This document shows positions 997 to 20,101 of a DNA stretch of 24,000 bases, piece by piece (within the stretch, counting starts at the first letter, position 1; every line of letters starts with the position of its first letter). Position numbers and translations under genes: made by a program. The stretch is from Desulfobacula toluolica Tol2 (GTDB taxonomy: Bacteria > Desulfobacterota > Desulfobacteria > Desulfobacterales > Desulfobacteraceae), in NCBI RefSeq assembly GCF_000307105.1, contig NC_018645.1, positions 856,578-880,577 of the forward strand. The letters are read 5' to 3'. Under the pieces are notes generated by a model, which saw nothing but the letters and a program-made list of their open reading frames with translations, searched no databases and was not told where the DNA came from.

Positions 997-1043
997 AATT
1001 GTTTCTCGTCTTTTGTCTTGTTTTGTTTTCTCTTCTTTTTAAT

Positions 1044-2282: not shown

Positions 2283-2299
2283 GTTATCTTTCCTTTTTT

Positions 2300-3082
2300 T
2301 TAGATGCCCGGATTTTTAAGGTTGGTCCGGGTGAAGATACGGTTGCTCAACTTTTTGTTAAACTCAATCTTTTCATATACAAGAAGGGTATACTCATCTG
2401 TTGCATCGGATTTTTGCATTTTCCATTTCATGGGGAAAAGCTTGTCATCGCTTTTTTGGATATCCCATGCCGTCATTATTTTTACAGTCTGAAGATCTTC
2501 ATCAAAAAATTCTTCACTTAAAAGGATAAAGTCTTCTCGTATTTTTAATTTGATCATGCCCCAGATAACCGGGGCATCAGGCTTGGGTATTGATCTTATT
2601 GTATGGATTTTTTTGTCCTGACCAAGAGTTGTCGCTTCCAAAGTATGCACATAATCTTTGATCAGGCTGTCGCTCTTTACAAGGTCATTGTTGGAAAAAT
2701 CCGATCCCTGCCAGGCTTGGGACATCATGGAAGGGGGAAGTTTGATGACCCGGTTTATCTTGGGATTGTATATCCACATTCCTTTGCCGGCTTTAAGGGT
2801 TCCGTTTCCCTTGTCCTTTGCCGGTTCAATAATGACAAACAGGGAATCGGATTCACCCCGGGTCCAGGATTTTATGGTCATGCTGCGTTCCCAGTCAGAG
2901 CGGTGGACGGTCATGATTGTGGTTGAAACAGAGGTTTGCCCGCGCCAGTAATCAAAGGCATTTTTAACGATGGTTCCGGCATTCGTTATTGCTTCGGTAT
3001 CCATAATTATTTCAGCATTCATCCGGGCCTGCGAAGTTGCTGCAAAAATAAGGATTACAATTGCCAGTACAGCTTTTTTCAT
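2300..3082 (-). CDS. LolA-like outer-membrane lipoprotein-sorting protein (secreted)
   Basis: 260 aa. Signal peptide MKKAVLAIVILIFAATSQA. The motif PPSMMSQAWQGSDFSNNDL is typical of the LolA_like family usually encoded next to FtsX-type permease pairs. SD GGGAGG lies 4 nt upstream of the ATG. The stop is 17 nt before the next permease start. Confidence 0.75.
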   Translation of the reverse strand: MKKAVLAIVILIFAATSQARMNAEIIMDTEAITNAGTIVKNAFDYWRGQTSVSTTIMTVHRSDWERSMTIKSWTRGESDSLFVIIEPAKDKGNGTLKAGKGMWIYNPKINRVIKLPPSMMSQAWQGSDFSNNDLVKSDSLIKDYVHTLEATTLGQDKKIHTIRSIPKPDAPVIWGMIKLKIREDFILLSEEFFDEDLQTVKIMTAWDIQKSDDKLFPMKWKMQKSDATDEYTLLVYEKIEFNKKLSNRIFTRTNLKNPGI

Positions 3083-3167
3083 TTTGCCTCCCTGATCTGA
3101 TTGATCAAATTTTCATATCAGAATCACCCATTGTTTTGCGTTAGAAGATAATTGCAACCACAATGTT

Positions 3168-3632
3168 TTATTCATATTCTTCATCATCATAGTCAGGATA
3201 TTGAGGTGGAGATTCTCCGACTGACTTGATTAATTTAATATATTTTTTTTTGGCTTTTGTCTCTTTGATATTTTGCACCTTGATTCGATGCCACCACTCA
3301 TCTCCAAAATCAAACAGGTAATGAAAGACATCTTTTTCATTCAAGCCGACATCGCAAATTTGCATCTTTGCTGTGGATTCTTTCCTTTCCCCATAACCCA
3401 TCATCTCTTCTGCACTCACGGGATGGGTTATCTGTGGAGCATCATATATATTCCGCATACTCTTGGTGTCTTTTCGAGTGATGAAAAATGAATAAAGGTG
3501 TTCATCGTATCTGTCAAATGACTGGAAAATCACATTGTGAAGATCATCAAAAGTGCAATTTTCAGATGCCTCAATTAGTCGATAAAGCTTTGGTATTCCT
3601 ATTATGGAAACCCTGAACTGGTATGTTTTCAT
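3168..3632 (-). CDS. plasmid pRiA4b ORF-3-like (PF07929 / MM3350-like) domain protein, stand-alone
   Basis: 154 aa. YQFRVSI...L..L...I...F.......HLYSF and YLFDFGDEWWHRIKV match the family hallmark (Y-x-YDFGD-x-W-x-H). The C-terminal tail is acidic. The gene is visibly more AT-rich than its neighbours and is flanked by long AT-rich non-coding DNA. Confidence 0.8.
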   Translation of the reverse strand: MKTYQFRVSIIGIPKLYRLIEASENCTFDDLHNVIFQSFDRYDEHLYSFFITRKDTKSMRNIYDAPQITHPVSAEEMMGYGERKESTAKMQICDVGLNEKDVFHYLFDFGDEWWHRIKVQNIKETKAKKKYIKLIKSVGESPPQYPDYDDEEYE

Positions 3633-3773
3633 TCTATTACTCTTATTCAGTTAATAATAAATTTTACTGTTTTTTTAATTTTGCAACATATTGGAATAAT
3701 TATATTTAAAATTTTTTGCCGAACTGTTGATTAAAAAAGAGCTGAATAAATAATATACAGTCGCTACCAGGAA

Positions 3774-3800
3774 AATGTTGGAATGGCAACATTCTTTTTG
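3774..3800 (+). terminator. orphan terminator-like hairpin (AATGTTG-gaatgg-CAACATT followed by CTTTTTG)
   Basis: A 7-bp perfect stem with a 6-nt loop and a T5 run on the plus strand. No plus-strand CDS lies upstream. See the candidate-sRNA finding. Confidence 0.35.
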
Positions 3801-3931
3801 AGAAAGGTATTTTTTTCAACATTATTACTCACAAAAGAAAGTGATAAACAGGATGTCAGGATATTTCCGCTGTTTCAAATGGTGTGGTTTCTAATTTGCT
3901 ATGGATTGTTCTTATTCTTTGAAATATGGGT

Positions 3932-3958
3932 TTGACATGACCGGCTACAGGGTATAGG
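3932..3958 (+). promoter_or_regulatory. putative sigma70-type promoter for the FMN riboswitch/ribB transcript
   Basis: TTGACA (3932-3937), a 15-nt spacer, then TATAGG (3953-3958). The predicted start falls just before riboswitch stem P1. The spacer is short and the -10 is imperfect, so this is tentative. Confidence 0.3.
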
Positions 3959-3967
3959 GTGTCTCCC

Positions 3968-4152
3968 GTATATTCTCAGGGCGGGGTGAAATTCCCCACC
4001 GGCGGTAACCTGGCCTGTATCAGGAAGCCCGCGAGCGCTCCCCCCAAGGCTTGAATGAGAAAGCTTAAATTGAAAAGTTTAAACCAGGGGAGGTCAGCAG
4101 ATCCGGTTAAATTCCGGAGCCGACGGTTAAAGTCCGGATGGAAGAGAATGCG
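3968..4152 (+). promoter_or_regulatory. FMN riboswitch (RFN element)
   Basis: All canonical blocks are present: ATTCTCAGGGCGGGGTGAAATTCCCCACCGGCGGTAA ... AGCCCGCGAGCG ... GTCAGCAGATCCGGTTAAATTCCGGAGCCGACGGTTAAAGTCCGGATGGAAGAGAAT. P1 closes as ATTCTC (3972-3977) / GAGAAT (4144-4149). The variable P3 hairpin is unusually long (~55 nt, GCTCCCC...GGGGAGG). It sits directly upstream of ribB. I could not resolve the expression platform; there is a weak hairpin CAGGCA-ttgtac-TGCCTG at 4201-4218 followed by a T-rich run. Confidence 0.95.
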
Positions 4153-4280
4153 TCAAGGCTGTGTTTTGTCTTTGGCGGTTTCCTTTTTATCAAGGAACTG
4201 CAGGCATTGTACTGCCTGAACGTCTATTTTTCCTTTTGCCCTGATTCATGTTTAATTTTATTATTGTAAGGAGATCGACC

Positions 4281-4943
4281 ATGAATCAGAGTCTGTTAAC
4301 TCGATTTGGAAATCCAGAGGAACGTGTGAAAAACGCGCTGTTATCCCTTCAGAACGGAAACGGCGTACTGGTCACGGATGATGAAGACCGAGAAAATGAA
4401 GGTGATCTTATTTTTCCGGCCCAGTCTTTGACGGAACAGCAGATGGCCATAATGATCCGGGAATGCTCGGGCATCGTCTGTTTGTGCCTGACCGAAGACA
4501 AGGTGGCATCCCTTGAATTGCCCATGATGGTTCAGCACAATTCCAGCCGATACCAGACGGCATTTACCATCTCCATTGAAGCTGCCACGGGAGTCACTAC
4601 GGGGGTGTCTGCAAAGGACCGTGTCGCAACGGTGCATGCAGCCGCAGCTGATAGTGCAGGGCCTTGTGACCTGAATAGTCCGGGTCATGTTTTTCCCTTA
4701 AAAGCAAAACCCGGCGGAGTGCTTGAGCGTGGGGGCCATACCGAAGCCACCGTTGATTTAATGCGCCTTTCCGGGTTGTCTCCTTGCGGGGTGCTGTGTG
4801 AATTGACCAACCCCGACGGCACCATGGCCAGACTGCCGAAGATCGTTGAATTTGCCGGGATACACGGGTTTCCCGTGCTGACCATTGATGATTTGATTTT
4901 GTATCGGAAAAATCAGAATTCGGAACACGACTCAACACTTTAA
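4281..4943 (+). CDS. ribB: 3,4-dihydroxy-2-butanone-4-phosphate synthase
   Basis: Hallmark motif [17 protein letters not shown], plus GHTEATVDL and [15 protein letters not shown] chose the start at ATG 4281 ([10 protein letters not shown]) because AAGGAG lies 7 nt upstream; the track start at 4248 has no SD. At 220 aa it is a monofunctional RibB. Confidence 0.95.
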
Positions 4944-4952
4944 AATGACGGC

Positions 4953-4983
4953 CCCGGTGCAGGATATTTCTGCCTGCACCGGG
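4953..4983 (+). terminator. GC-rich hairpin downstream of ribB (possible terminator, no U-tract)
   Basis: CCCGGTGCAGG (4953-4963) pairs with CCTGCACCGGG (4973-4983): 11 bp with a 9-nt loop, starting 10 nt after the ribB stop. It is followed by AGATTGAT rather than a T-run. Confidence 0.4.
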
Positions 4984-4988
4984 AGATT

Positions 4989-5036
4989 GATAAAGCCGGA
5001 TTTATCCCGGACAGCAGGTTTGAATCCGGCTTTATC
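4989..5036. other. perfect 14-bp inverted repeat / long hairpin
   Basis: GATAAAGCCGGATT (4989-5002) and AATCCGGCTTTATC (5023-5036) with a 20-nt loop. Function unknown. Confidence 0.6.
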
Positions 5037-5381
5037 AGGGATCGGATAAGACATGTGGCAACCCTGGAATTAACAAAGCTTATGATGAATCAGAACCTCA
5101 CCCTGGCCTTGGCGGCATATTATTACCCATTTATGAAGACGGCTATCTTCGTCCAAAAGCCAATTATAAATACAGTTACAGCCTTGTGCTTGAAACAGGA
5201 TTAAATATTTTTTTCGGATATGAACATCATAAGTTTTTTGCCGGGTTTGGAAATAATACCAATATTTATGCGGCGGTTAGATATTATTTTTAAAGGGATT
5301 TCAATTTGAAATAAACATTGCTCAAATGATATCCTGTGTTATGTTAGCAATGTATTCTTTAAGACAAACAGGTGAAATGGT

Positions 5382-5630
5382 ATGTGTTTAGCAGTTCCGT
5401 CTAAGATTGTCGAGATAAACGATACGGTTGCCAAAGTTGATGTGGACGGTGTGACCCGGCAAATCAGTACCATGCTTCTGGGTGATGTAAAGATCGGGGA
5501 TTATGTCATTGTCCATGCCGGATTTGCCATCAATAAGGTCGATGAAGCCACTGCCCGTGAAACCCTGGAAGATTTGCGCCAAATACTGGCAGCGGATGCC
5601 CGGCAGGATGATGGCCGTAATGAACAGTAA
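5382..5630 (+). CDS. hypC: [NiFe]-hydrogenase maturation chaperone HypC/HybG/HupF family
   Basis: 82 aa starting MCLAVPSKIVEI (the invariant Cys2 motif MCLxxP). GDYVIVHAGFAI is present. SD AGGTGA lies upstream. Confidence 0.95.
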   Translation: MCLAVPSKIVEINDTVAKVDVDGVTRQISTMLLGDVKIGDYVIVHAGFAINKVDEATARETLEDLRQILAADARQDDGRNEQ

Positions 5631-5639
5631 CAGGTTTTT

Positions 5640-7988
5640 ATGACCGTTCCCATAGCCTTAAACCAAACGGCAGTAGCAAAAAAGCTGGAAATCAGCGGCG
5701 TTGTTCAAGGCGTTGGGTTTCGGCCTTTTTTATTTGGTCTGGCAGATCAATATCATCTGAAAGGGGAGGTATTCAATACCTCCGGCGGCATTCGGGTTAT
5801 TGTGGAAGGACCCCCTGAAAAAATTGAGCGGTTTGTCGATGATATTTATCATAAAAGTCCTTTGCTGGCTTCTGTGACAGACATTAAATCCAGTGATGTG
5901 CCGCCTGGAAATTTTTTTTCATTTAAAATTGAGAACAGTGAAGTTGCCAACCGGCGGACCACCCTTATTTCTCCTGATGTGGCTATTTGTTCCGACTGCC
6001 TGGCTGAAATGAAAGATCCCGGCAACAGACGGCATGAATATGAGTTTATCAATTGCACCAATTGCGGCCCCAGGTATACAATTATTAAAGATATTCCCTA
6101 TGACCGGTCCAAAACTTCCATGAAATCGTTTAAGATGTGTGGAAAATGTCAACAAGAGTATGATGACCCGCTGAACAGGCGGTTTCATGCCCAACCCAAT
6201 GCCTGCCCGGTCTGCGGACCACAGGTTTTTTTGACGGACCGCCGGGGGAATCGGATCAATACGGATTCACAATCAGCCATCACTCTTGCGGCTCAATATT
6301 TGCGCCAGGGTAGAATTATCGGGATAAAAGGGCTTGGCGGATTTCATCTGGCCTGTGATGCCGCCAATCTTGATGCAGTAAAACAATTGCGGCAGAGAAA
6401 AAACCGTCCCCATAAGCCCTTTGCCCTGATGGCAGCATCGGCATCAATCCTGTTTGACCATGTTCATGTCAGCAACAGGGAAAAACAACTCCTGACCTCC
6501 TATCAAAGACCCATTGTTTTGCTGAAAAGGAAATATATCAATGGGGACAATCAAAAAGGGTCTGTACTTGCAACGGATGTGGCTTTCTTTAATAAAACTC
6601 TGGGCGTCATGCTTCCCTATGCGCCGTTGCATTGTCTGCTGCTTGAAAAAGGACCGTCCATCCTGGTGATGACCAGCGGCAACCTTTCAGGAGAGCCGCT
6701 TTCCATTGAAAATGAGGATGCTCTGGAGGCATTTTCCCATATTGCGGATTATTTTTTATTGCACAATCGGGATATCTGTTTTCGCGCAGATGATTCCATT
6801 GCAAGAATCCAGGCGGGTGAAACAAGATTTATCCGGCGGTCAAGAGGATATGCACCCCTGCCGGTTTTTATCAACCGAAAAATGCCGAAAATTCTGGGGT
6901 GCGGGGCAGGGTTCAAGAATGCGGTCTGCCTGACCCGGGGTCATCATGCTTTTTTAAGCCAGCATATCGGGGATCTGGATAATATGAAGACTCATGCGTT
7001 TTATCGGGACAGTATTGATCATTTGAAAAATATTTTCGACATCCAGCCGGACATTATTGCCCATGACATGCATCATGGATATATGAGTACTGATTATGCC
7101 AAAGCGCAGAACACGGTAAAAAAAGTGGCGGTTCAGCATCACCATGCCCATGCTGCCGCCTGCATGGCGGAAAACGGTTTGGATGAAGAGGTTATCGCCA
7201 TCACCCTTGACGGCACGGGGTATGGAACAGACGGTCATATCTGGGGCGGGGAAATTCTTTTGTGTACACAAAAAGCCTTTAAACGCAAAGCTCACCTGTC
7301 CTACATTAAAATGCCGGGCGGGGATGCGGCTGTTCTGGAACCTTGGCGCATGGCGGCATCTGTTCTTTTTCAGGTTTTTGGCAAAGATTTTTTACAGATG
7401 GAGATTCCTTATATAAAGGCCATGGAAAAAGAAAAACTGTCTTTTATCTGCGGTATGATGGAGAAAAATCTGAATTCACCGTTGACCTCCAGTGTTGGAA
7501 GGCTGTTTGATGCGGTGTCTTCCCTTTTGTGCGTCCGGCATACGATTTCGTATGAAAGTCAGGCCGCAATGGAACTGGAAGCCATGGCAGACGAACGTCC
7601 TGTTCGGGAATGCTATGCCTTTGATCTGGTATCCGGTAAAAAGGATGGTGGCCGAGACCAGGTTTTTGAAATTAATTTAATGCCCTGTATCAGGCAGATA
7701 ACAGCGGAGTTGCAGCAGGGTCGGCACGTTGCCGGAATAAGTGCAAAATTTCATTATACGCTGGCTCAGGCTTTTGCCGTGGCAGCGCTCAAAGTTAGCC
7801 TGCAAACCCATATCCAAAAAATAATCCTCTCCGGGGGGGTGTTCCATAACGATATCATTTTGAATACCATGATCCTGGCCCTTGAAGAACATAACCTAAA
7901 GGTATACACACACACGCAGGTTCCCACCGGTGACGGGGGGATCTGTTTAGGCCAGGCAGTGGTTGCGGCTGCCCTTGAAGGAAGCTGA
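5640..7988 (+). CDS. hypF: carbamoyltransferase HypF
   Basis: 782 aa. N-terminal acylphosphatase-like domain (VQGVGFRPF). Two zinc-finger pairs (CSDCLAEM...CTNCGPRY and CGKCQQEY...CPVCGP). A YrdC-like segment (KGLGGFHLACDA) and a C-terminal Kae1-like domain. Starts 9 nt after hypC. Confidence 0.97.
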   Translation: MTVPIALNQTAVAKKLEISGVVQGVGFRPFLFGLADQYHLKGEVFNTSGGIRVIVEGPPEKIERFVDDIYHKSPLLASVTDIKSSDVPPGNFFSFKIENSEVANRRTTLISPDVAICSDCLAEMKDPGNRRHEYEFINCTNCGPRYTIIKDIPYDRSKTSMKSFKMCGKCQQEYDDPLNRRFHAQPNACPVCGPQVFLTDRRGNRINTDSQSAITLAAQYLRQGRIIGIKGLGGFHLACDAANLDAVKQLRQRKNRPHKPFALMAASASILFDHVHVSNREKQLLTSYQRPIVLLKRKYINGDNQKGSVLATDVAFFNKTLGVMLPYAPLHCLLLEKGPSILVMTSGNLSGEPLSIENEDALEAFSHIADYFLLHNRDICFRADDSIARIQAGETRFIRRSRGYAPLPVFINRKMPKILGCGAGFKNAVCLTRGHHAFLSQHIGDLDNMKTHAFYRDSIDHLKNIFDIQPDIIAHDMHHGYMSTDYAKAQNTVKKVAVQHHHAHAAACMAENGLDEEVIAITLDGTGYGTDGHIWGGEILLCTQKAFKRKAHLSYIKMPGGDAAVLEPWRMAASVLFQVFGKDFLQMEIPYIKAMEKEKLSFICGMMEKNLNSPLTSSVGRLFDAVSSLLCVRHTISYESQAAMELEAMADERPVRECYAFDLVSGKKDGGRDQVFEINLMPCIRQITAELQQGRHVAGISAKFHYTLAQAFAVAALKVSLQTHIQKIILSGGVFHNDIILNTMILALEEHNLKVYTHTQVPTGDGGICLGQAVVAAALEGS

Positions 7989-7991
7989 TCA

Positions 7992-9077
7992 ATGAGTTTG
8001 CAATATATTGAAGAATACAGGGATGCATCTCTTGCAAGGGAGCTTGTGAAAAAAATTAAGGCTGTCAGCCATAAAAAACTCAGACTGATGGAGGTCTGCG
8101 GAACCCATACCATGTCCATTTTTCGGCATGGTATCAGAAGTGTTCTGCCGGAAAGGATAACGCTTCTTTCCGGGCCGGGGTGTCCTGTGTGCGTGACCGC
8201 CCAGAAAGACATTGATGCTTTTGTGGCGCTGGCAAGGGTTAAAAATGTGATAGTGACCACATTTGGAGATCTCATGAAAGTGCCGGGGTCCGGTTCGACC
8301 CTTGCCCTGGAAAAAGCATCCGGCGCGGATGTAAGGATGGTCTATTCCATATCGGATGCCGTTGCCATTGCCCGGGAAAATAAAAGCAAGCAAGTGGTGT
8401 TCTGTGCAGTGGGATTTGAAACCACCATTCCCACCATTGCGGCCGGAATTCTAATGGCCATCCGGGAAAAAACAGATAATTTTTCCATTTATTCCGCCAA
8501 TAAACTCACCCCGCCCGCACTTACCGCCCTGATGGAAACAGACGGGGTTCAGATCGACGGATTTATCCTTCCGGGCCATGTCTCCGTGATTACCGGAACC
8601 CATGCCTACAGGGACACATTTGAAAAATATAATATGCCGTCCGTGATTGCTGGATTTGAACCGGTTGATATTTTAAATGCCATCCTGATGTTGATCCGAC
8701 AGAATGAGACGGGAACGCCGGCTCTTGAAAATGCATATCCAAGGGCCGTGTCAGATTCAGGAAATGTAAAGGCAAAACAGATCATGAACCAGGTCTTTGA
8801 TATTTGTGATGCCTCCTGGAGAGGGATTGGACACATTCCATCCAGTGGGATGAGGCTGAAAAAATCGTATGAAAAATTTAATGCCTCCATAAAATTTAGC
8901 ATGGATATGCCCGAGGTTCCCGAACCCAAAGGGTGCGCCTGCGGTCAGATTCTCATGGGGTTAAAAACGCCTGAAAAATGCGTTCTTTATAAGAAGAAAT
9001 GTACTCCCATGACACCGGTCGGTCCCTGTATGGTCTCAAGTGAAGGGGCTTGTGCAGCATTTTACAGATACAGTTAA
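7992..9077 (+). CDS. hypD: hydrogenase formation protein HypD
   Basis: 361 aa. Motifs MEVCGTHT, GPGCPVCV, FETT and PGHVS, plus a C-terminal Cys cluster. Starts 3 nt after the hypF stop. Confidence 0.97.
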   Translation: MSLQYIEEYRDASLARELVKKIKAVSHKKLRLMEVCGTHTMSIFRHGIRSVLPERITLLSGPGCPVCVTAQKDIDAFVALARVKNVIVTTFGDLMKVPGSGSTLALEKASGADVRMVYSISDAVAIARENKSKQVVFCAVGFETTIPTIAAGILMAIREKTDNFSIYSANKLTPPALTALMETDGVQIDGFILPGHVSVITGTHAYRDTFEKYNMPSVIAGFEPVDILNAILMLIRQNETGTPALENAYPRAVSDSGNVKAKQIMNQVFDICDASWRGIGHIPSSGMRLKKSYEKFNASIKFSMDMPEVPEPKGCACGQILMGLKTPEKCVLYKKKCTPMTPVGPCMVSSEGACAAFYRYS

Positions 9078-9146
9078 TATGAAAGCAGCGAGTAATGAGT
9101 GTTGAGATTCTCATCACCCAGAACCCAATGCCAAGTATTCAATTTT

Positions 9147-9210
9147 AATTATCAAGTCCCCACAATGTCAATTATCAAGTCCTCAATGTCAAGTATCAAG
9201 TACCTAATAC
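9147..9210 (+). repeat. three imperfect tandem ~21-nt repeats in the hypD-hypE spacer
   Basis: AATTATCAAGTCCCCACAATGTC (9147-9169), AATTATCAAGTCCTCAATGTC (9170-9190) and AAGTATCAAGTACCTAATAC (9191-9210). A weaker related stretch, CAAGTATTCAATTTT, lies just upstream (9132-9146). Confidence 0.8.
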
Positions 9211-9250
9211 ATACCAGGGCATAGGGTTACTATATAAACAGGAAAAAAAT

Positions 9251-10261
9251 ATGACTGAAGAAAAAATATTACTCGACCATGGTTCCGGAGGAAAACTATC
9301 CCACTCAATGTTTTCCGATATGATCCTGCCTTTGTTTGAAAATTCTGAATTGTCAAAACAAGATGACGGGGCAATCCTGGATGTTGAAGGCGCAAGGCTT
9401 GCTTTTTCAACCGATTCTTATGTGGTGGACCCCATTTTTTTCCCCGGCGGGAATATCGGCGACCTGGCGGTGAATGGAACCGTCAATGATATCTCCATGT
9501 GCGGGGCTGTCCCTAAGTTTATCAGCGTGGGCCTGATTATTGAAGAAGGACTGCCGGTAAAGCAGTTAAAGATAATTCTTGAAACCATTGCAGCGGCTGC
9601 CAAAAAAGCCGGGGTCAAGATTGTCACAGGTGATACCAAGGTGGTTCCCAGGGGAAAGGCAGACAAGATTTTTATCAACACTTCCGGTATAGGCGTGATT
9701 CCTGCCCATGTGAATGTGTCCGGAAGCAATGCACAACCGGGCGATAAGATCATTGTCAGCGGAACCCTTGCAGATCACGGTATTGCGGTCTTAAGCTCAA
9801 GGGAGGGTTTAAAATTTGATTCCGATATCAAAACCGATTCAGCCCCGTTAAATAAAATGGTTCAGTCTCTTATCCGGTCCGGCTGTGATGTTCATGTGCT
9901 TCGGGACCCTACAAGGGGTGGTCTGGGAACAACCTTGAATGAGATTGCATCACAATCAAGAGTTGGAATTAGAATAGATGAAATGTCTCTGCCTGTCACG
10001 GGACCGGTAAGGGGAGCCTGTGAGTTGTTGGGGTTTGATCCGCTCTATATTGCAAACGAAGGCAAATTGATCGCCTTTGTGCCGGAAAAGGATGTGGACA
10101 AAGCCCTTGAGATTATCCGGCAGGATGTGTTTGGCAAAGTTGCTGTGATTATTGGTGACGTCACAAGCGAAGATCCCGGCAAGGTTTTTTTGCAGACCTC
10201 TATCGGCGGGGTGAGACCCATTGATATGCTTACAGGAGAGCAGCTGCCGAGAATCTGCTGA
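9251..10261 (+). CDS. hypE: hydrogenase expression/formation protein HypE
   Basis: 336 aa with an AIR-synthase-like fold. N-terminus LLDHGSGG. The diagnostic C-terminal PRIC motif is present (…GEQLPRIC-stop). Confidence 0.97.
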   Translation: MTEEKILLDHGSGGKLSHSMFSDMILPLFENSELSKQDDGAILDVEGARLAFSTDSYVVDPIFFPGGNIGDLAVNGTVNDISMCGAVPKFISVGLIIEEGLPVKQLKIILETIAAAAKKAGVKIVTGDTKVVPRGKADKIFINTSGIGVIPAHVNVSGSNAQPGDKIIVSGTLADHGIAVLSSREGLKFDSDIKTDSAPLNKMVQSLIRSGCDVHVLRDPTRGGLGTTLNEIASQSRVGIRIDEMSLPVTGPVRGACELLGFDPLYIANEGKLIAFVPEKDVDKALEIIRQDVFGKVAVIIGDVTSEDPGKVFLQTSIGGVRPIDMLTGEQLPRIC

Positions 10262-10271
10262 CTTGATTTTT

Positions 10272-10682
10272 TTATTCCTTGGATTTTAAGAAGTCCAGAT
10301 CCGGGATGGGCATTAATTTTTTGTTCGGCCCCAGGCAGACAAGCTCCAGTGTGCATGTGACAGCCGCTTTTTTTCCATCCGGCCGCCAGGCTTCATGGAA
10401 AAAGATAATCCTGTAATGCCCTTCTTTTTTCCAGGTTGTCCTGATGTCGAGACGATCTCCGAAAATGGCACCCTCATGGTATCCTATATTTATTTTGTAA
10501 ATGGCAAAACCTATTTCATGCTTATGCCACATGTCGGCAAGAACCTTGGTCCCCATGATATCTTCCCTTGCCCGTTCAAAAAATTTTAAATAGTTTGCAT
10601 GGTAGACAACCCCTGAATGGTCGGTGTCTTCATAATATACTTGAGCTGTAAAATGATGTGGTGTCATGTTTGAATCCATCAT
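10272..10682 (-). CDS. acyl-CoA thioesterase, YbgC/4HBT (hotdog) family
   Basis: VYYEDTDHSGVVYHANYLKFFERARED is the family catalytic motif. The track ORF starts at 10742. I prefer ATG 10682 (MMDSNMTPHH...) because AGGA lies 8 nt upstream and the N-terminal length then fits the family. The start is uncertain by +/-60 nt. The gene is convergent with hypE, with only 10 nt between the stops. Confidence 0.85.
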   Translation of the reverse strand: MMDSNMTPHHFTAQVYYEDTDHSGVVYHANYLKFFERAREDIMGTKVLADMWHKHEIGFAIYKINIGYHEGAIFGDRLDIRTTWKKEGHYRIIFFHEAWRPDGKKAAVTCTLELVCLGPNKKLMPIPDLDFLKSKE

Positions 10683-10851
10683 ATCCCGTATCCTGTAAAA
10701 TGAGTCATATGGTAGGCTTTTATATATCTGCGGGCAAATCAAATCAAGGATTTTATATTAAAGCAGTGGTTTTTGGATAGTGGCTTTTGGGTTGTAGGCT
10801 TCTCTTGATTTTATGTAAAAGAATTTTTAACCTGGGGTTATTGAAAACAGG

Positions 10852-11184
10852 TTATCTTGTGCGATAGAACCGGATACTTATTTCTTCTATGGTAACAAGC
10901 CCCTCAATAATCGTGTGGTCAATGACCGGCATAAACTTGTTTATTTTTTCCAGGGTATCTACAATCTCTATGACCATGGGCATATCTTCCGAAAGCCTTA
11001 AAATCTTTGTGGTATGAATCCTTGAATGCGCTCCAAAACCCAGGATACCACGGGTAACAGTTGCCCCGGCTAATCCCTGTTCTCTTGCTTTTTTTACAAT
11101 CCACTCATATAGCGGTGTTCCGTCTTTTTTATCAGACTCGCCAATAAAGATTCTGAGCAAATGCCCTTTTTCAGGAAGAACCAT
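10852..11184 (-). CDS. DUF190 (PII-like) protein commonly paired with crcB
   Basis: 110 aa. LLRIFIGESDKKDGTPLYEWIVKKAREQGLAGATVTRGILGFG matches DUF190. SD AAGGAG lies 7 nt upstream. It sits immediately downstream of crcB. Confidence 0.85.
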   Translation of the reverse strand: MVLPEKGHLLRIFIGESDKKDGTPLYEWIVKKAREQGLAGATVTRGILGFGAHSRIHTTKILRLSEDMPMVIEIVDTLEKINKFMPVIDHTIIEGLVTIEEISIRFYRTR

Positions 11185-16411: not shown

Positions 16412-17077
16412 ATGCTCAAAGATGGTGAAAAAGGGGTGATTCGTCAACGAGGTAAGGAAAAAGAAACCTATGCCATTGCCCCGCATCTTCCCTGCGGGAT
16501 TGTGAATCCGGATCAGCTCAGGAAGCTTGCGGATGTGGCCCAAAAATATAATGTGTCGGATGTGAAAATCACCAGTGCGGCAAGGATCGCCCTTATCGGC
16601 ATTACCGAAGACCAGGTGGACGGCATCTGGAAGGATCTTGGCATGGATGCCGGTCATGCCACAGGGCTTTGTGTCAGAAGCATCAAGGTTTGCCCCGGAA
16701 CAGCCTATTGCCGCCTGGCACAGCAGGACAGTCTTAAGATGGGCATGGCACTGGATGAAACTTATCATGGCATGGTTCTGCCCAGTAAAATGAAAATGGG
16801 TGTCAGCGGCTGCAAAATTCAATGTGCTGAAAATTGTATCAAAGATATCTCCCTTTACGGAACCAAAAATGGATGGACCGTCATGGTCGGCGGCAATGGG
16901 TCGGCAAGACCGAGGCTTGCCGATCTTCTGGTGGAAGATCTTGACTTTGAAGATGCCCGGGCCATGGTGGCAAAGGTGGTGGCGTACTACAAGGAGAATT
17001 CAAAACGCGAACGCATGGGCCGGATGATTGAACGTATCGGTCTTGATATAATGAAGGCAAAATTAAATATCAAATGA
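16412..17077 (+). CDS. small siroheme-[4Fe-4S] nitrite/sulfite reductase family protein (assimilatory-type low-molecular-weight sulfite reductase, alSiR-like)
   Basis: 221 aa. The cluster/siroheme Cys motif C-x5-C...C-x3-C is present as CPGTAYC and CKIQC. There is a NIR_SIR ferredoxin-like half-domain (DQLRKLADVAQKY...VKITSAARIALIGI). The size matches the ~218-aa Desulfovibrio alSiR class. SD AAGGAG upstream. Confidence 0.85.
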   Translation: MLKDGEKGVIRQRGKEKETYAIAPHLPCGIVNPDQLRKLADVAQKYNVSDVKITSAARIALIGITEDQVDGIWKDLGMDAGHATGLCVRSIKVCPGTAYCRLAQQDSLKMGMALDETYHGMVLPSKMKMGVSGCKIQCAENCIKDISLYGTKNGWTVMVGGNGSARPRLADLLVEDLDFEDARAMVAKVVAYYKENSKRERMGRMIERIGLDIMKAKLNIK

Positions 17078-17164
17078 TATAATAACGGCCATGGCAGATC
17101 ACTCTGCCACAACAAGAAATAAAAGGTATCTAATTTCAATAGGTTGGAGATTTTTTATATAAAA
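17077..17164 (+). repeat. structured intergenic repeat, copy D (short-loop variant)
   Basis: ATATAATAACGGCCATGGCAGATCACTCTGCCACAACAAGAAATAAAAGGTATCTAATTTCAATAGGTTGGAGATTTTTTATATAAAA. Stem 1 is GGCAGA-tcac-TCTGCC. Stem 2 is ATAAAA/TTTTAT, a compensated change. It starts at the alSiR stop codon and ends 20 nt before the 17184 ATG. Confidence 0.8.
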
Positions 17165-17183
17165 TTTTAAAAGGGAGGGGAAA

Positions 17184-18113
17184 ATGGACAGGCGAAAATT
17201 TTTAAAACAGGTGTCGTTGTGGTCTGCAGGTATTATCATGACTCCTCCTGTATTTGATCTGACACCTGAATTGTTGGCTTCTTCTTTGATAAAACCGGAT
17301 GTTTTGGTGGCAAAAGGAGAAAATTATTTTGGCATGGTTACACAGGTGGTTCAGGCCATGGGCGGGATACAGGCCTTTGTCAAGCCTGGCGACAAAGTGG
17401 TGATCAAGCCCAATATCGGGTGGGACAGGAACGTTGAGCAGGGCGCGAACACTCATCCGGTGATTGTCAGCAGGCTGGCAAGTCTTTGTCTTGATGCGGG
17501 TGCATCCAAAGTGCTGGTGTTTGACCGGACCTGCAATGAAGAGCGACGGTGCTATCATAACAGCGGGATAAAGTCGGCATTAAAAGAGATCCGGGATAAC
17601 CGGCTCAGGCTTGAGTATGTGGATGATAGAAAGTTTGTGCCGGTCACCATCAAAAACGGAAAAGCATTAAAACAATGGTCGTTTTATAAGGATGCCCTGG
17701 AAGCCGATTGCTATATCAATGTGCCGGTTGCCAAGCATCATGGCCTTTCCGGGCTGAGCCTCGGCCTTAAAAATGTCATGGGCATTATCGGTGGATGGAG
17801 GGGCAGGATACATTATCAGCTGGGGGAAAAGCTTGCGGATTTGAACACCGTTATAAAACCTGGGTTTACCATTGTTGATGCCACCCGTGTGATTACCAGG
17901 AACGGTCCTCAGGGCGGGGATATGGATGATGTAAAAAAACTGGACACCATTATCGGCTGTGTGGACCCTGTGGCAGCAGATGCCTATGCCACAACGCTGT
18001 TCGGGCTGAAACCCGATCAGATCAAATCAACGGTTGAAGCCTATAAAAGAGGACTTGGACAGATGGATCTGGACAAGTGCAATATCCGCAACCTGAAAGC
18101 CTTGCAAGCATGA
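17184..18113 (+). CDS. DUF362 domain protein with a twin-arginine (Tat) signal peptide
   Basis: 309 aa. The N-terminus MDRRKFLKQVSLWSAGIIMTPPVF matches the Tat consensus (S/T)RRxFLK followed by a hydrophobic region. The body (VVIKPNIGW..., HHGLSGLSLGLKNVMG, DATRV, DPVAADAY) fits DUF362. SD GGGAGGGG upstream. Its TGA overlaps the next gene's ATG as ATGA. Confidence 0.8.
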   Translation: MDRRKFLKQVSLWSAGIIMTPPVFDLTPELLASSLIKPDVLVAKGENYFGMVTQVVQAMGGIQAFVKPGDKVVIKPNIGWDRNVEQGANTHPVIVSRLASLCLDAGASKVLVFDRTCNEERRCYHNSGIKSALKEIRDNRLRLEYVDDRKFVPVTIKNGKALKQWSFYKDALEADCYINVPVAKHHGLSGLSLGLKNVMGIIGGWRGRIHYQLGEKLADLNTVIKPGFTIVDATRVITRNGPQGGDMDDVKKLDTIIGCVDPVAADAYATTLFGLKPDQIKSTVEAYKRGLGQMDLDKCNIRNLKALQA

Positions 18114-19654
18114 AGATAAAACCGTATTTAAAACAGTTGAGACGGTTGTCCCAGGTTGTCTGTCTGCTGATATTTTTATTCTTGTTTCGGCAGACAGATT
18201 ATTCAGGCAGTGATATCATCCCCTATGCCGTCAATATCTTATTCCGGCTTGATCCTCTGGTGCTTGCCACTGTTACGCTGGCCAAAAAAACTTTTGTGAC
18301 ATTGTTGTGGCCGTCTTTTATCATTATCGGGTTAACCGTTTTGCTGGGCAGGGTTTTTTGTTCATGGATCTGCCCGTTGGGAACTATGATTGATCTGTCC
18401 GGTCGGTTTATCAAGCCTGTAACAAACCGTATACGCCTGTCCTGGTTAAAATATGTTGTTCTTATGGTTGTATTGATCTCAGCCGGTTTTGGTGTTCAAA
18501 TTCTGGGCTTTGCAGATCCTTTTTCCCTGTTGGTCAGGGGTATGGTGTTCAGTATTGATCCGATGATCAATTACCTTGTTTCCCTGTTTTTTGATTCAAT
18601 TTATATCAGTGGTCCTGCCTGGCTTTCAGGCATGACCGAGCCTGTGTATGATGTTTTTAAGGTTTTTCTTCTTCCCTATAAACAAAGCTTTTTTTTTCTG
18701 TCATTTGTATCCTTTTTTTTGCTGGTCTCTATTTTTATACTGGAGTTTTTCGGCAAGCGGTTCTGGTGCCGGAACCTTTGTCCCCTGGGCGGACTTTTGG
18801 CATTGATGTCACGGATATCTTTTTTCAAGCGAATCCCTGTGAAAGCATGCAGGCATTGTGATTTGTGTGAAACTCGTTGCCGGATGAAAGCCTTTGACAA
18901 AGACCGTTATTTTATGGGTGAAGAGTGTACTCTTTGCATGGACTGCCTGGAATTTTGCCCGGAAGCCATAACCACGTTCCGATTTGCCCCTGGCAAAAGC
19001 AAACCGCCCGTGGATATCAACAGACGCCAATTGATGGCCGCAGGGATTGCGGGCCTTGCCCTGCCTGTTCTCTGTCGGACCAGTGCCGTGTCAAAGACGA
19101 CGGATGACGCCTTGATCCGGCCCCCCGGTGCTCTGGATGAAAAAGATTTTCTTGCCACCTGTGTGCGTTGTGGAGAGTGTATGAAAGTTTGTATTAATAC
19201 GGCACTGCAACCCGTGTTTCTGGAAAAGGGTTTTGAAGCCATGTTTACTCCAAAACTGGTTCCCCGGCTGGGATATTGTGAATTCAACTGCACGCTGTGT
19301 TCCCAGGTATGTCCCACAGGTGCCCTGGAAAAAATGGAAAAAAAACAAAAGCATGCCTTTGTCATGGGCAATGCCTGGTTTGATAAAAACAGGTGCCTGG
19401 TGTACGCACAAAAAAAATCTTGCATTGTTTGCGAAGAACACTGCCCAACCCATGACAAGGCTATTAAATTTAATGAAATCAATACCATGGATCAGTCTGG
19501 CAATTCTGTTTTGCTCAAACAGCCTTATGTGGTGGCAGCTCTTTGCATTGGCTGCGGCATATGTGAATATATCTGTCCGGTCCAGGGCAGTGCAGGCATC
19601 AGGGTGGCAGGCAAGGGGGATAATGAAAAATACGGGGCAGGGTATGCATTATGA
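18110..19654 (+). CDS. membrane polyferredoxin: NapH-like N-terminal half fused to a NapG-like C-terminal half
   Basis: I prefer the start at ATG 18110 (MKIKPYLKQLRR), which overlaps the upstream stop; the track used GTG 18077. N-terminal half: TM helices carrying the two CX3CP motifs VFCSWICPLGT and FWCRNLCPLGG, then CRHCDLCETRC and CTLCMDCLEFCPE (compare NapH LFCSWVCPL, WCGHICPVG, CNRCMDCFHVCPE). C-terminal half: NRRQLMAAGIAGLALPV, IRPPGALDEKDFLATCVRCGECMKVC, CEFNCTLCSQVCPTGAL, CIVCEEHCP and CIGCGICEYICP (compare NapG RRRFLRD..., [48 protein letters not shown]). Confidence 0.85.
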   Translation: MKIKPYLKQLRRLSQVVCLLIFLFLFRQTDYSGSDIIPYAVNILFRLDPLVLATVTLAKKTFVTLLWPSFIIIGLTVLLGRVFCSWICPLGTMIDLSGRFIKPVTNRIRLSWLKYVVLMVVLISAGFGVQILGFADPFSLLVRGMVFSIDPMINYLVSLFFDSIYISGPAWLSGMTEPVYDVFKVFLLPYKQSFFFLSFVSFFLLVSIFILEFFGKRFWCRNLCPLGGLLALMSRISFFKRIPVKACRHCDLCETRCRMKAFDKDRYFMGEECTLCMDCLEFCPEAITTFRFAPGKSKPPVDINRRQLMAAGIAGLALPVLCRTSAVSKTTDDALIRPPGALDEKDFLATCVRCGECMKVCINTALQPVFLEKGFEAMFTPKLVPRLGYCEFNCTLCSQVCPTGALEKMEKKQKHAFVMGNAWFDKNRCLVYAQKKSCIVCEEHCPTHDKAIKFNEINTMDQSGNSVLLKQPYVVAALCIGCGICEYICPVQGSAGIRVAGKGDNEKYGAGYAL

Positions 19655-19698: not shown

Positions 19699-19738
19699 TT
19701 AAATGGATTTGGACTTAAAAAAATATCAGGGAGACTGT

Positions 19739-20101
19739 ATGAAAGCATTGATCATTGCTGCCCATGGCAGCCGGAAAAAAGAATCAAACCTGGAGATCGC
19801 ATCATTGGTGGAACGGTTGTCCAAAAAAACATCAGGATCTTTTGACATGGTGGTGCATGCTTTTTTGCAATTTGCCGATCCTTTGATTGAGAAAAAAATT
19901 GATGAGCTTGTGGAAAAAGGGGTAGAAAAACTTGTGATATTTCCGTTTTTTCTCGGCAGCGGCAGCCATATTCTTGTGGATATCCCGGAACTTGTAAAAA
20001 AGGCCCAAACCACCCATGGTCATGTTGAGTTTCAGTTGACCCGGCATTTAGGGAAAATCGAGGCAATAGAAGATGTGATCTTAAAGGAGGTGACAGGCTA
20101 A
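19739..20101 (+). CDS. cbiX: sirohydrochlorin chelatase, small CbiX(S)-type
   Basis: 120 aa from ATG 19739 (MKALIIAAHGSRKKESN...), with GGGAG 7 nt upstream; the track start at 19703 lacks an SD. The AHGSR motif, FPFFLGSGSH and the single-domain length fit CbiX-small. Confidence 0.8.
   Translation: MKALIIAAHGSRKKESNLEIASLVERLSKKTSGSFDMVVHAFLQFADPLIEKKIDELVEKGVEKLVIFPFFLGSGSHILVDIPELVKKAQTTHGHVEFQLTRHLGKIEAIEDVILKEVTG

What the first reader, a model, noticed from the sequence alone, without database searches (positions are those of the whole stretch)
17184..19654. Translationally coupled Tat-exported DUF362 protein plus NapH-NapG fusion polyferredoxin: candidate uncharacterised membrane redox module
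The DUF362 protein carries a textbook twin-arginine signal (MDRRKFLKQVSLWSAGIIM). This implies export of a folded, probably cofactor-loaded protein. Its stop overlaps (ATGA, 18110-18113) the start of a 514-aa protein that reads as NapH joined to NapG. The NapH part has TM helices with the two CX3CP motifs and two Fe-S motifs; the NapG part has IRPPGA-x-x-E-x-x-F-x-x-x-CVRCGECMKVC and three further CxxCxxCxxxCP clusters. In the Nap system, NapG (Tat-exported and periplasmic) and NapH (membrane-bound) form a quinol dehydrogenase that feeds a periplasmic catalytic subunit. Here no napA or napB is present, and the only exported partner is a domain of unknown function. By analogy, DUF362 would be the periplasmic catalytic or electron-accepting subunit of a quinone-linked complex with an unknown substrate.
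Basis: partly seen in the sequence, partly recalled or inferred. Interest (0 to 1): 0.65.

Follow-up and report, generated by a model that had tools for sequence, protein, structure and literature searches.

The report
Exported DUF362 enzyme with polyferredoxin partner
Two overlapping genes encode a protein of unknown function that is exported folded and its own membrane iron-sulfur "wire"; the pair recurs in hundreds of mostly anaerobic bacterial species, so it is probably an unstudied redox enzyme working outside the cytoplasm.

Summary
17184-18113 encodes a 309-aa DUF362 protein with an RRKFLK twin-arginine signal. Its stop overlaps (ATGA) the start of a 514-aa NapH-like/NapG-like fused polyferredoxin.

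The pairing is not local. At least 596 species-level genomes carry this DUF362 subfamily. In 76 of the 80 loci fetched, from about eight phyla, the polyferredoxin lies directly downstream. No third gene is conserved.

The polyferredoxin half is already published. It is 34% identical (E 8e-50) to the MLMS-1 "PFD" of Tooke et al. 2017, whose fifth helix is inserted by Tat through an internal RR motif. That motif is conserved here.

The DUF362 half has a lactate-racemase (LarA)-like fold and appears to keep LarA's His/Lys/His pocket. Its Cys pair is not universal.

Earlier agents of this scan, which flagged this module on other DNA more than 100 times, proposed a nickel-pincer cofactor. My test weakens that idea. 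One 99%-complete Desulfobacterales genome and four Acidobacteriota genomes carry the pair but have no LarA, LarB, LarC or LarE.

Best reading: a periplasmic catalytic subunit fed by a quinone-linked polyferredoxin, with substrate and cofactor unknown. No paper found describes the pair. No transcript data could be obtained.

The parts
17173..17180 (+). Shine-Dalgarno (GGGAGGGG) of the DUF362 gene
   Evidence: Read directly from the sequence. It ends 3 nt before the ATG at 17184.
17184..18113 (+). Gene for the Tat-exported DUF362 protein (309 aa, P0001)
   Evidence: ORF. Pfam PF04015 gives E 5.7e-51. There are more than 6500 homologues and 385 clusters at 50% identity with E<=1e-30.
17184..17282 (+). 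Twin-arginine signal peptide (residues 1 to about 33; D-R-R-K-F-L-K, h-region, LLASS)
   Evidence: R3, R4 and F6 are invariant in 29 sequences and 97% kept in 69 sequences. RRx[FLIVM] occurs in 112 of 129 distant representatives. TatC is present in the genome.
17397..17993 (+). DUF362 domain (residues 72-270) with a LarA-like fold
   Evidence: Pfam coordinates. The AF2 model has pLDDT 76.7. The top 18 Foldseek hits against PDB are all LarA or LarA-like enzymes, with E from 5e-6 to 1e-4.
17739..17813 (+). Conserved pocket segment H186...K196-N197...R206...H210, which corresponds to LarA His174, Lys184 and, by spacing, His200
   Evidence: These residues are 96-100% conserved in 129 representatives at 34-58% identity. 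hhalign places H186 opposite the LarA catalytic His and K196 opposite the LarA tether Lys (weak statistics, E 0.41 and 0.022). LarA numbering was checked against PDB chain 2yjg.
17532..17552 (+). C117-x5-C123 loop (FDRTCNEERRCY), specific to part of the subfamily
   Evidence: The loop is 90-97% kept among close orthologues. Among 129 representatives, C117 is kept in only 54% and C123 in 36%. Some distant members have one Cys or none.
18110..18113 (+). ATGA start/stop overlap, suggesting translational coupling
   Evidence: Read directly from the sequence. Across 76 loci the estimated gap has a median of about 0 nt.
18110..19654 (+). Gene for the polytopic polyferredoxin (514 aa, P0002; NapH-like plus NapG-like)
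   Evidence: ORF. NCBIfam gives partial NapH and NapG hits. The protein is 34% identical (E 8e-50) to residues 9-360 of the MLMS-1 PFD.
18110..18979 (+). NapH-like part: four TM helices, two CX3CP motifs (C84/C88, C220/C224) and two cytoplasmic CxxCxxCxxxC motifs (247-257, 273-283)
   Evidence: Hydropathy profile and Cys conservation. AF2 helices at 6-28, 68-79, 112-126 and 197-214. TIGR02163 and NF007013 hit residues 9-173.
19022..19090 (+). Internal twin-arginine motif (R305-R306) followed by the weakly hydrophobic fifth TM helix (309-327)
   Evidence: R305 is kept in 93% and R306 in 98% of 59 homologues. Kyte-Doolittle hydropathy is 1.54 here against 2.2-2.6 for TM2-4. AF2 gives a helix at 305-327. 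The segment aligns with the RR motif and TMD5 of the experimentally tested MLMS-1 PFD (PMC5449189).
19118..19651 (+). NapG-like periplasmic four-cluster ferredoxin domain (IRPPGA motif; Cys clusters at 351-361, 390-401, 429-445 and 479-489)
   Evidence: NF007012 and TIGR00397 hit residues 304-500. All Cys are invariant in 35-59 homologues.

Best explanation
The two genes encode a self-contained redox module that faces the periplasm.

The polyferredoxin:
- The 514-aa protein is a polytopic polyferredoxin of the family called PFD.
- Its first four helices are NapH-like and carry the two CX3CP motifs. The Sec pathway inserts them.
- Two ferredoxin-type clusters, and probably a third built from the CX3CP cysteines, stay on the cytoplasmic side.
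- The internal RR motif hands the weakly hydrophobic fifth helix to the Tat system. Tat pulls the pre-folded NapG-like four-cluster domain across the membrane.

The DUF362 protein:
- It is exported separately by Tat, in a folded state and probably already loaded with a cofactor or metal.
- It docks on the NapG-like domain.
- Its LarA-like pocket is built from universally conserved residues: K75, N77, D114, K184, H186, K196, R206, H210, D232 and D266.
- This pocket is the catalytic site of the module.

Electron flow:
- By analogy with NapGH, NosGH and MauMN, electrons pass between the menaquinone pool and the periplasmic clusters, and from there to or from the DUF362 site.
- The module would therefore be a quinol:substrate reductase, or the reverse reaction.
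- The substrate and the cofactor are unknown.

Shown and inferred:
- Shown: the gene pair and its conservation, the signals, the motifs, the fold, and the family link to the tested PFD.
- Inferred: the physical complex, the quinone link, the direction of electron flow, and catalysis by DUF362.
For: Gene pair:
- The pair is directly adjacent, on the same strand and in the same order, in 76 of 80 loci from Desulfobacterota, Acidobacteriota, Nitrospirota, Planctomycetota, Verrucomicrobiota, KSB1, Zixibacteria and Elusimicrobia.
- The median gap is about 0 nt, and the identities of the two proteins across loci correlate with r 0.89.
- No third gene is conserved; the next most frequent cluster occurs in 12 of 80 loci.
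- The pair is single-copy in this genome.
- It is also adjacent in six further genomes reached independently.

Export signals:
- The Tat motif of DUF362 is nearly universal, and TatC is present.
- The polyferredoxin keeps all 28 Cys and the internal RR motif.
- It aligns with the MLMS-1 PFD through TMD5. Tat-dependent export of that protein's C-terminal domain was shown with reporter fusions (PMC5449189).

DUF362 as a redox domain:
- It has a LarA-like fold.
- The polar pocket is invariant.
- The least confident AF2 loops (118-124, 198-206, 241-244) are conserved motifs, as expected for loops that need a ligand to order.
- A cytoplasmic DUF362 paralogue in the same genome has a 2x[4Fe-4S] ferredoxin domain inserted into it. 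This fits a domain that exchanges electrons with ferredoxin-type clusters. In the exported version, the polyferredoxin would supply those clusters in trans.

NapGH is described as a quinol dehydrogenase in the sources cited by PMC5449189.
Against: - No experiment or transcript data are available.
- No complex model could be computed.
- NapH and NapG scores are far below the curated cut-offs, so quinol oxidation is only an analogy.
- NapH-type proteins have no haem and no obvious quinone site. A cytoplasmic electron donor is equally possible.
- In L067, and probably also L074 and L051, a Tat-DUF362 gene has no polyferredoxin downstream. The partnership is therefore not absolute.
- The LarA enzymes known so far are racemases or epimerases with no net redox change. 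That does not call for an electron wire.
- The Foldseek search with the polyferredoxin model found nothing significant.
Confidence: 0.6

Rival explanations
1. [quoted passage not shown] DUF362 would then act as a periplasmic hydride-transfer enzyme that the polyferredoxin recharges or protects. Earlier agents of this scan proposed this reading.
For: - All significant PDB fold matches are NPN enzymes.
- DUF362 and LarA_N share Pfam clan CL0471 (PMC11770544).
- H186-x9-K196 matches LarA His174-x9-Lys184 exactly. H210 lies two residues off the LarA spacing, and cytoplasmic paralogues have exactly K+16.
- H186, K196 and H210 are 98-100% conserved.
- This genome has LarB, LarC and LarE.
- 45 of 50 pair-bearing genomes have LarC. 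Four of the five without it have LarA, so they are probably incomplete assemblies.
- At least six pair-bearing genomes have LarC but no LarA.
- In Acidobacteriota, LarC is present in 90% of pair-positive genomes and 64% of pair-negative genomes.
- NPN enzymes outside the LarA family are now known (PMC13524815).
Against: - G410 is 99% complete and belongs to the same order as this genome. It has the pair with the K/H/K/H core intact, but no LarB, LarC or LarE.
- Four Acidobacteriota genomes (G018, G524, G564, G586), drawn with a 90% completeness floor, have the pair but no LarA, LarB, LarC or LarE. Two of them are 58-59% identical to P0001.
- LarC is present in 90% of Desulfobacterota genomes regardless of the pair, so co-occurrence there says nothing.
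- No lar gene lies within 8 kb of the pair in any of the 80 loci.
- B. thetaiotaomicron has a DUF362 protein but no LarC.
- The LarA C-terminal domain and the His108 equivalent are missing.
- The sequence-level alignment to LarA is statistically weak (E 0.022 to 0.41).
Confidence: 0.17
2. DUF362 is not the terminal enzyme. It is an accessory or maturation factor, for example a metal or cofactor handler or a repair protein. It would use electrons from the polyferredoxin to activate or maintain other periplasmic enzymes, much as NosR, NosGH and NosD support N2O reductase.
For: - In Desulfuromonadales the pair sits inside a larger operon with NosD/beta-helix, CarboxypepD_reg, DUF3467, OpuAC-like and DUF3047 genes.
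- In four loci a Tat-signal Mo-enzyme of the MsrP/YedY type lies divergently next to the pair.
- Earlier notes of this scan report exported AmmeMemoRadiSam genes beside the pair in other genomes. I did not test this.
- These variable clients around a constant pair fit a service module.
Against: - In most loci, including this window, there is no conserved client gene.
- The invariant polar pocket in an enzyme-like fold looks catalytic.
- The clade-specific neighbours differ from one clade to the next.
Confidence: 0.15
3. In this genome the pair belongs to a siroheme-linked pathway together with the flanking alSiR-like reductase (16412-17077) and the CbiX chelatase (19703-20101). An example would be sulfite or nitrite handling.
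For: - All four genes are co-directional and closely spaced.
- No promoter-like site was flagged in the 106-nt spacer.
- CbiX follows the pair in the four closest loci, L001-L004. The alSiR-like gene lies about 2 kb upstream in L003 and L004.
Against: - Beyond Desulfobacula-like genomes, none of the other 76 loci has either gene nearby.
- The alSiR-like protein has no signal peptide and would be cytoplasmic, whereas DUF362 is exported.
- The spacer holds a copy of a mobile hairpin repeat (and note e1-2472578), which suggests a chance junction.
Confidence: 0.04

Closest known systems
Polytopic polyferredoxin PFD (Q1NSB0, delta proteobacterium MLMS-1), a dual Sec/Tat-inserted membrane protein (Tooke et al. 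2017, eLife; PMC5449189)
   Same: - 34% identity over residues 7-325 (E 8e-50), including the RR motif and the fifth TM helix.
- Same architecture: five TM helices, CX3CP motifs, cytoplasmic clusters and four periplasmic clusters.
- The fifth helix is weakly hydrophobic and is followed by positive charges.
   Different: - The paper deals only with membrane insertion. It gives no physiological role, and in the passages I read it mentions no DUF362 neighbour.
- Whether the MLMS-1 gene also has a DUF362 partner was not checked here.
NapGH / NosGH / MauMN quinol-dehydrogenase-type modules
   Same: - A NapH-like four-helix membrane part with two CX3CP motifs and cytoplasmic Fe-S motifs.
- A NapG-like four-cluster domain on the periplasmic side that serves a Tat-exported periplasmic partner.
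   Different: - The two halves are fused into one polypeptide.
- Scores are far below the NapH and NapG cut-offs (84.5 against 213; 99.4 against 269).
- No napA/napB, nosZ or mau genes are present.
- The partner is a DUF362 protein, not a molybdo-, copper- or TTQ-enzyme.
LarA (lactate racemase) superfamily of nickel-pincer enzymes (PDB 5HUQ, 7S91, 9EIA, 9Q3J)
   Same: - It is the only significant structural relative (Foldseek E from 5e-6 to 1e-4, TM 0.37-0.51).
- Same Pfam clan (CL0471).
- The His...Lys...His spacing of the cofactor pocket appears to be kept.
   Different: - About 270 mature residues against about 420. There is no LarA C-terminal domain and no His108 equivalent.
- DUF362 is exported by Tat.
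- It is paired with an electron carrier.
- It is present in genomes that lack LarBCE.
- No Lar_N Pfam hit.
MsrPQ (YedYZ)
   Same: The logic is the same: a Tat-exported periplasmic enzyme is fed by its own dedicated membrane electron carrier, and the two are encoded by adjacent genes. PMC5449189 draws the same parallel for fused and split versions.
   Different: The proteins are unrelated. MsrP is a Mo-enzyme and MsrQ is a haem b protein; here the pair is a LarA-like protein and an Fe-S protein.

Membership tests
Pfam DUF362 (PF04015) | Score above the gathering cut-off over the whole domain | tested here: met
   173.8 bits against a cut-off of 24. Residues 72-270 cover profile positions 1-199 of 200.
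Tat substrates | N-terminal S/T-R-R-x-F-L-K motif followed by a moderately hydrophobic h-region | tested here: met
   The N-terminus is MDRRKFLKQVSLWSAGIIM. RRxF is kept in 97% of 69 orthologues and RRx[FLIVM] in 112 of 129 distant representatives. No dedicated predictor such as SignalP or TatP was available.
Tat substrates | Tat machinery present in the genome | tested here: met
   TatC (PF00902) hits at E 8e-75 at G000:C1:678297-678935.
Tat substrates | Tat-dependent export shown | not testable with these tools
   This needs reporter fusions or fractionation.
Dual Sec/Tat polytopic polyferredoxin (PFD, PMC5449189) | Homology to the tested MLMS-1 PFD across the membrane region | tested here: met
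   34% identity, E 8e-50, residues 7-325 against 9-360. The MLMS-1 sequence was taken from the paper's supplement.
Dual Sec/Tat polytopic polyferredoxin (PFD, PMC5449189) | Conserved twin-arginine motif directly before the fifth TM helix | tested here: met
   R305 is kept in 93% and R306 in 98% of 59 homologues. R305 is invariant in the 35-sequence alignment.
Dual Sec/Tat polytopic polyferredoxin (PFD, PMC5449189) | Fifth helix of low hydrophobicity with positive charges after it | tested here: met
   Kyte-Doolittle maximum is 1.54 for residues 309-327, against 2.16-2.58 for TM2-4. R323 and K329 follow the helix. The delta-G(app) predictor used in the paper was not available.
Dual Sec/Tat polytopic polyferredoxin (PFD, PMC5449189) | Cys motifs for about three cytoplasmic and four periplasmic clusters | tested here: met
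   28 conserved Cys: 2x CX3CP, two cytoplasmic four-Cys motifs and four four-Cys motifs after TM5.
NapH (TIGR02163, NF007013) and NapG (TIGR00397, NF007012) proper | Score above the curated family cut-off | tested here: not met
   NapH: 84.5 against 213.05, and 70.9 against 234. NapG: 88.6 against 178.85, and 99.4 against 269. The protein is NapH/NapG-like only.
Nap system | napA or napB in the neighbourhood | tested here: not met
   None was found among the window's ORFs, and none is a conserved neighbour in the 80 loci.
LarA / nickel-pincer enzymes | LarA fold | tested here: met
   The top 18 Foldseek PDB hits are all LarA or LarA-like (E from 5e-6 to 1e-4). The match covers only the N-terminal two thirds of LarA.
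LarA / nickel-pincer enzymes | Lar_N (PF09861) and LarA C-terminal domain | tested here: not met
   P0001 hits only DUF362. It has 309 aa against about 420 for LarA. hhalign to 14 LarA homologues gives E 0.022.
LarA / nickel-pincer enzymes | Cofactor residues: tether Lys184, Ni ligand His200, catalytic His108 and His174 | tested here: inconclusive
   H186 and K196 align with His174 and Lys184. H210 fits His200 only by spacing. The His108 position falls in the C-x5-C loop. The alignment statistics are weak.
LarA / nickel-pincer enzymes | NPN biosynthesis genes (LarB, LarC, LarE) present wherever the enzyme is present | tested here: not met
   G410 (99% complete) and G018, G524, G564 and G586 carry the pair without LarB, LarC or LarE. 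This genome does have all three.

The most novel reading that the evidence does not exclude
The exported DUF362 protein would be a new class of LarA-fold redox enzyme. It would hold a Lys-tethered organometallic or nicotinic-acid-derived hydride cofactor outside the cytoplasm. In most lineages this would be NPN; in the lineages without LarBCE it would be a related cofactor not yet described. The polyferredoxin would recharge it one electron at a time. Bacteria would thereby gain a periplasmic stand-in for NAD(P)H-dependent reductases.
Probability: 0.15. Interest if true: 0.85.

Novelty: new variant of a known kind. Interest (0 to 1): 0.6.

Why it matters
DUF362 is a large family with no known function, and the polytopic polyferredoxin is known only as a model for Sec/Tat membrane insertion.

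- **Context for two open problems.** The two genes are an obligate pair in hundreds of species: at least 596 species-level genomes, and about one third of the Acidobacteriota genomes sampled. This gives both families a concrete, testable setting, namely a periplasmic enzyme with its own electron supply in anaerobes.
- **Link to nickel-pincer biology.** The LarA-like fold ties the module to the current search for new nickel-pincer enzymes. The counter-examples found here warn that the cofactor may be something else.
- **What a solved function would add.** Identifying the substrate would add a new terminal or detoxifying redox reaction to the envelope biology of sulfate reducers, metal reducers and many uncultured lineages.

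Tried and rejected
2. **Sequence search against PDB.** The DUF362 profile found only chance hits, with E above 0.1.
3. **Foldseek with the polyferredoxin model.** Nothing was significant; the best hit was FwdF at E 0.37.
4. **LarC co-occurrence in Desulfobacterota.** This was uninformative, because 90% of the phylum has LarC.
5. **lar genes near the pair.** None lies within 8 kb in the 80 loci. The apparent LarB hits were response-regulator genes next to LarB in my query locus.
6. **Cys pair as a metal or Fe-S ligand set.** I rejected this as a general feature, because C117 and C123 are kept in only 54% and 36% of distant representatives.
7. **Siroheme link (alSiR and CbiX).** The association is confined to the nearest relatives.
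8. **Third conserved gene.** I searched for a conserved client gene and found none.
9. **Internal RR motif as a dead fossil** (note e1-2472581). I rejected this reading because the motif is conserved and because of the published experiments.
10. **Literature searches.** I searched for DUF362, COG2006, PF04015, LarA plus twin-arginine, and NapGH plus polyferredoxin. None returned a functional study.


Full report
**1. Observation**

- The DUF362 gene, 17184-18113 (+), encodes 309 aa (P0001) that begin MDRRKFLKQVSLWSAGIIM. A GGGAGGGG ribosome-binding site precedes it.
- Its TGA stop (18111-18113) overlaps the ATG (18110-18112) of a 514-aa ORF, P0002, which ends at 19654.
- Pfam gives DUF362 for P0001 (E 5.7e-51). 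For P0002 it gives two Fer4_5 matches and several 4Fe-4S dicluster families.
- NCBIfam places NapH/MauN-type models on residues 9-173 of P0002 and NapG/MauM-type models on residues 304-500. All scores are well below the curated cut-offs, so the protein is NapH/NapG-like rather than NapGH itself.
- Nothing in the window resembles napA or napB. The other genes are an FtsX-type permease, a LolA-like gene, ribB, hypF-hypD-hypE, DUF190-crcB, an outer-membrane barrel, DUF309, methyltransferases, an alSiR-like small siroheme protein, cbiX, a GT4 glycosyltransferase and a PP2C-like gene.

**2. The pair is a conserved two-gene module**

- A pattern scan of one genome per species found at least 596 loci that encode this DUF362 subfamily.
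- In the 80 loci fetched, tblastn finds the polyferredoxin directly downstream on the same strand in 76. DUF362 identity to P0001 in these loci runs from 45% to 83%. The phyla are Desulfobacterota, Acidobacteriota, Nitrospirota, Planctomycetota, Verrucomicrobiota, KSB1, Zixibacteria and Elusimicrobia.
- Three of the four exceptions (L018, L074, L051) have less than 1 kb of DNA downstream. Only L067 has room for the gene and lacks it.
- The estimated gap between the two genes has a median of about 0 nt and is under 190 nt in 74 of 76 loci. The identities of the two proteins across loci correlate with r 0.89.
- Clustering all flanking ORFs found no third conserved gene. The next most frequent family occurs in 12 of 80 loci.
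- The pair is single-copy in this genome.
- Read against 1.84 billion representatives, P0001 has 385 relatives at E<=1e-30 and 5871 at E<=1e-3.
- In a sample of 151 Acidobacteriota genomes, 48 carry a homologue at E<=1e-30.

**3. The polyferredoxin half is a known protein family**

- Tooke et al. 2017 (PMC5449189) described "polytopic polyferredoxins" as NapH-NapG fusions with five TM helices. They have three cytoplasmic and four extracytoplasmic clusters and a conserved RR motif before TMD5. Using reporter fusions, the authors showed that the MLMS-1 protein needs Tat to export what follows TMD5.
- I took the MLMS-1 membrane region from that paper's supplement. P0002 aligns with it over residues 7-325 at 34% identity (E 8e-50). 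DINRRQLMAAGIAGLALPVLCRTS lies opposite DLGRRRLLGAAAAGLVVGPLLRVS.
- In 59 homologues all 28 Cys are kept. R305 is kept in 93% and R306 in 98%. The fifth helix (309-327) is much less hydrophobic than TM2-4. AF2 models it as a helix at 305-327.
- The internal signal is therefore almost certainly functional. This contradicts another first-stage note on this window, which called it a fossil.

**4. The DUF362 half**

- RRxF is present in 97% of 69 orthologues. The rest of the signal varies and ends in Ala-rich, cleavage-like sites. TatC is in the genome.
- A profile search of PDB sequences found nothing.
- An AF2 model (pLDDT 76.7) matched only LarA and LarA-like nickel-pincer enzymes: 18 hits with E from 5e-6 to 1e-4 and TM from 0.37 to 0.51. 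This agrees with DUF362 and LarA_N sharing Pfam clan CL0471 (PMC11770544).
- hhalign against the genome's own LarA homologue, and against 14 LarA homologues, is statistically weak (E 0.41 and 0.022). It is nevertheless collinear over 246 columns. It puts H186 opposite LarA His174 and K196 opposite the cofactor-tethering Lys184. LarA numbering was checked against PDB chain 2yjg.
- H210 sits 14 residues after K196. In LarA, and in cytoplasmic DUF362 paralogues, the corresponding His sits 16 residues after the Lys.
- In 129 full-length representatives at 34-58% identity, these residues are 92-100% conserved: K75, P76, N77, T90, P92, D114, S127, N179, K184, H186, K196, N197, G200, R206, H210, D232, G241, P242 and D266.
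- In the same set, C117 is kept in 54%, C123 in 36% and H91 in 24%. The Cys pair that stands out in this window is therefore not a universal ligand.

**5. Test of the nickel-pincer idea**

Notes from earlier agents of this scan proposed that DUF362 carries the NPN cofactor. The scan has seen this module on other DNA in more than 100 genomes.

Evidence that fits NPN:
- This genome has LarB, LarC and LarE, and also a LarA homologue.
- 45 of 50 pair-bearing genomes have LarC. Four of the five without it have LarA, so those assemblies are probably incomplete.
- Six pair-bearing genomes have LarC but no LarA.

Limits of that evidence:
- LarC is present in 362 of 401 Desulfobacterota genomes in any case.
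- No lar gene lies within 8 kb of the pair in the 80 loci.
- In Acidobacteriota, LarC is found in 43 of 48 pair-positive genomes and 66 of 103 pair-negative genomes. The odds ratio is 4.8 with p 9e-4, not corrected for kinship.

Evidence against an obligate NPN cofactor:
- The five Acidobacteriota exceptions have no LarB, LarC or LarE at all, and four of them also have no LarA. All five nevertheless have Tat-DUF362 with the polyferredoxin adjacent.
- Among 20 LarC-negative Desulfobacterota genomes, G410 carries the pair with NRREFLK and the K/H/K/H core intact. It has no LarB, LarC or LarE. G410 is 99% complete, 1% contaminated and in the same order as this genome.
- B. thetaiotaomicron has a DUF362 protein but no LarC.

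An obligate LarBCE-made cofactor is therefore unlikely. NPN use in some lineages is not excluded.

**6. Mechanism proposed**

Sec inserts the NapH-like four-helix part. Tat inserts helix 5 and exports the pre-folded four-cluster domain. DUF362 is exported separately and docks on that domain. Electrons then move between the quinone pool (or a cytoplasmic donor, via the cytoplasmic clusters) and the DUF362 pocket.

A cytoplasmic DUF362 paralogue in this genome has a 2x[4Fe-4S] domain inserted into it. This supports the view that DUF362 domains work with ferredoxin-type clusters.

The complex, the quinone link and the substrate are all inferred.

**7. Local and clade-specific context**

- The alSiR-like gene and cbiX flank the pair only in the nearest relatives, L001-L004. 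The 106-nt spacer before the DUF362 gene holds a hairpin of a mobile repeat family.
- In Desulfuromonadales the pair lies in a larger envelope operon with NosD/beta-helix, CarboxypepD_reg, DUF3467, OpuAC-like and DUF3047 genes.
- In four loci a Tat-signal MsrP/YedY-type Mo-enzyme lies divergently upstream.
- These variable neighbours keep open a role as a service module for other periplasmic enzymes.

**8. Novelty and verdict**

I found no paper on the function of DUF362 or on this pairing. The polyferredoxin's biogenesis is published. New NPN enzyme families outside LarA are a current topic (PMC13524815).

I classify the finding as a new variant of a known kind: a NapGH-type electron module serving an unknown LarA-fold periplasmic partner. 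It is widespread and testable, but this scan has already found it many times on other DNA.

Noticed in passing
window 17078-17183 (hairpin 17088-17113): The 106-nt spacer between the alSiR-like gene and the DUF362 gene contains an 11-bp-stem hairpin. The hairpin belongs to the mobile two-hairpin repeat family noted elsewhere in this window. No sigma-70-like promoter was flagged in the spacer.
   Followed up: no
window 19022-19090: Another first-stage note on this window called the internal RR motif of the polyferredoxin a fossil that cannot work internally. Published reporter-fusion work on the homologous MLMS-1 protein shows that such internal motifs direct Tat-dependent insertion of the fifth helix. 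The motif is 93-98% conserved.
   Followed up: yes
L082 (G000:C1:1172782-1173600): The same genome has a cytoplasmic DUF362 paralogue of 380 aa with no signal peptide. A 2x[4Fe-4S] ferredoxin domain is inserted after the H...K...H segment. This is a fused counterpart of the exported pair.
   Followed up: partly
L084 (G000:C1, about 1.329-1.331 Mb): A true LarA homologue of 414 aa matches malate and lactate racemase structures at E 1e-60. It sits between an ETF-alpha-like ORF and a Cys-rich 315-aa Fe-S ORF. LarB, LarC and LarE are scattered elsewhere in the chromosome.
   Followed up: partly
L067, L069, L070, L074 (about 5.1-7.9 kb in each locus): A Tat-signal Oxidored_molyb protein of about 232 aa (MsrP/YedY type) lies divergently next to the Tat-DUF362 gene. 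In L067 no polyferredoxin gene follows the DUF362 gene. In L074 only about 0.7 kb of DNA is held downstream, so its absence there cannot be judged.
   Followed up: partly
L040, L050, L052, L054 (positions 1-11100): In Desulfuromonadales the pair is the distal part of a long co-directional operon. The operon has repeated NosD/beta-helix and CarboxypepD_reg proteins, plus DUF3467, OpuAC-like and DUF3047 genes.
   Followed up: partly
G011:C19:150551-151692 and G023:C13:50192-51337: In two pair-bearing MAGs the LarC reading frame is broken into pieces or has in-frame stops. These could be pseudogenes or assembly errors.
   Followed up: no
window 5640-10261: The hydrogenase maturation genes hypF, hypD and hypE lie 7 kb upstream of the module. 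No hydrogenase structural genes are in the window.
   Followed up: no
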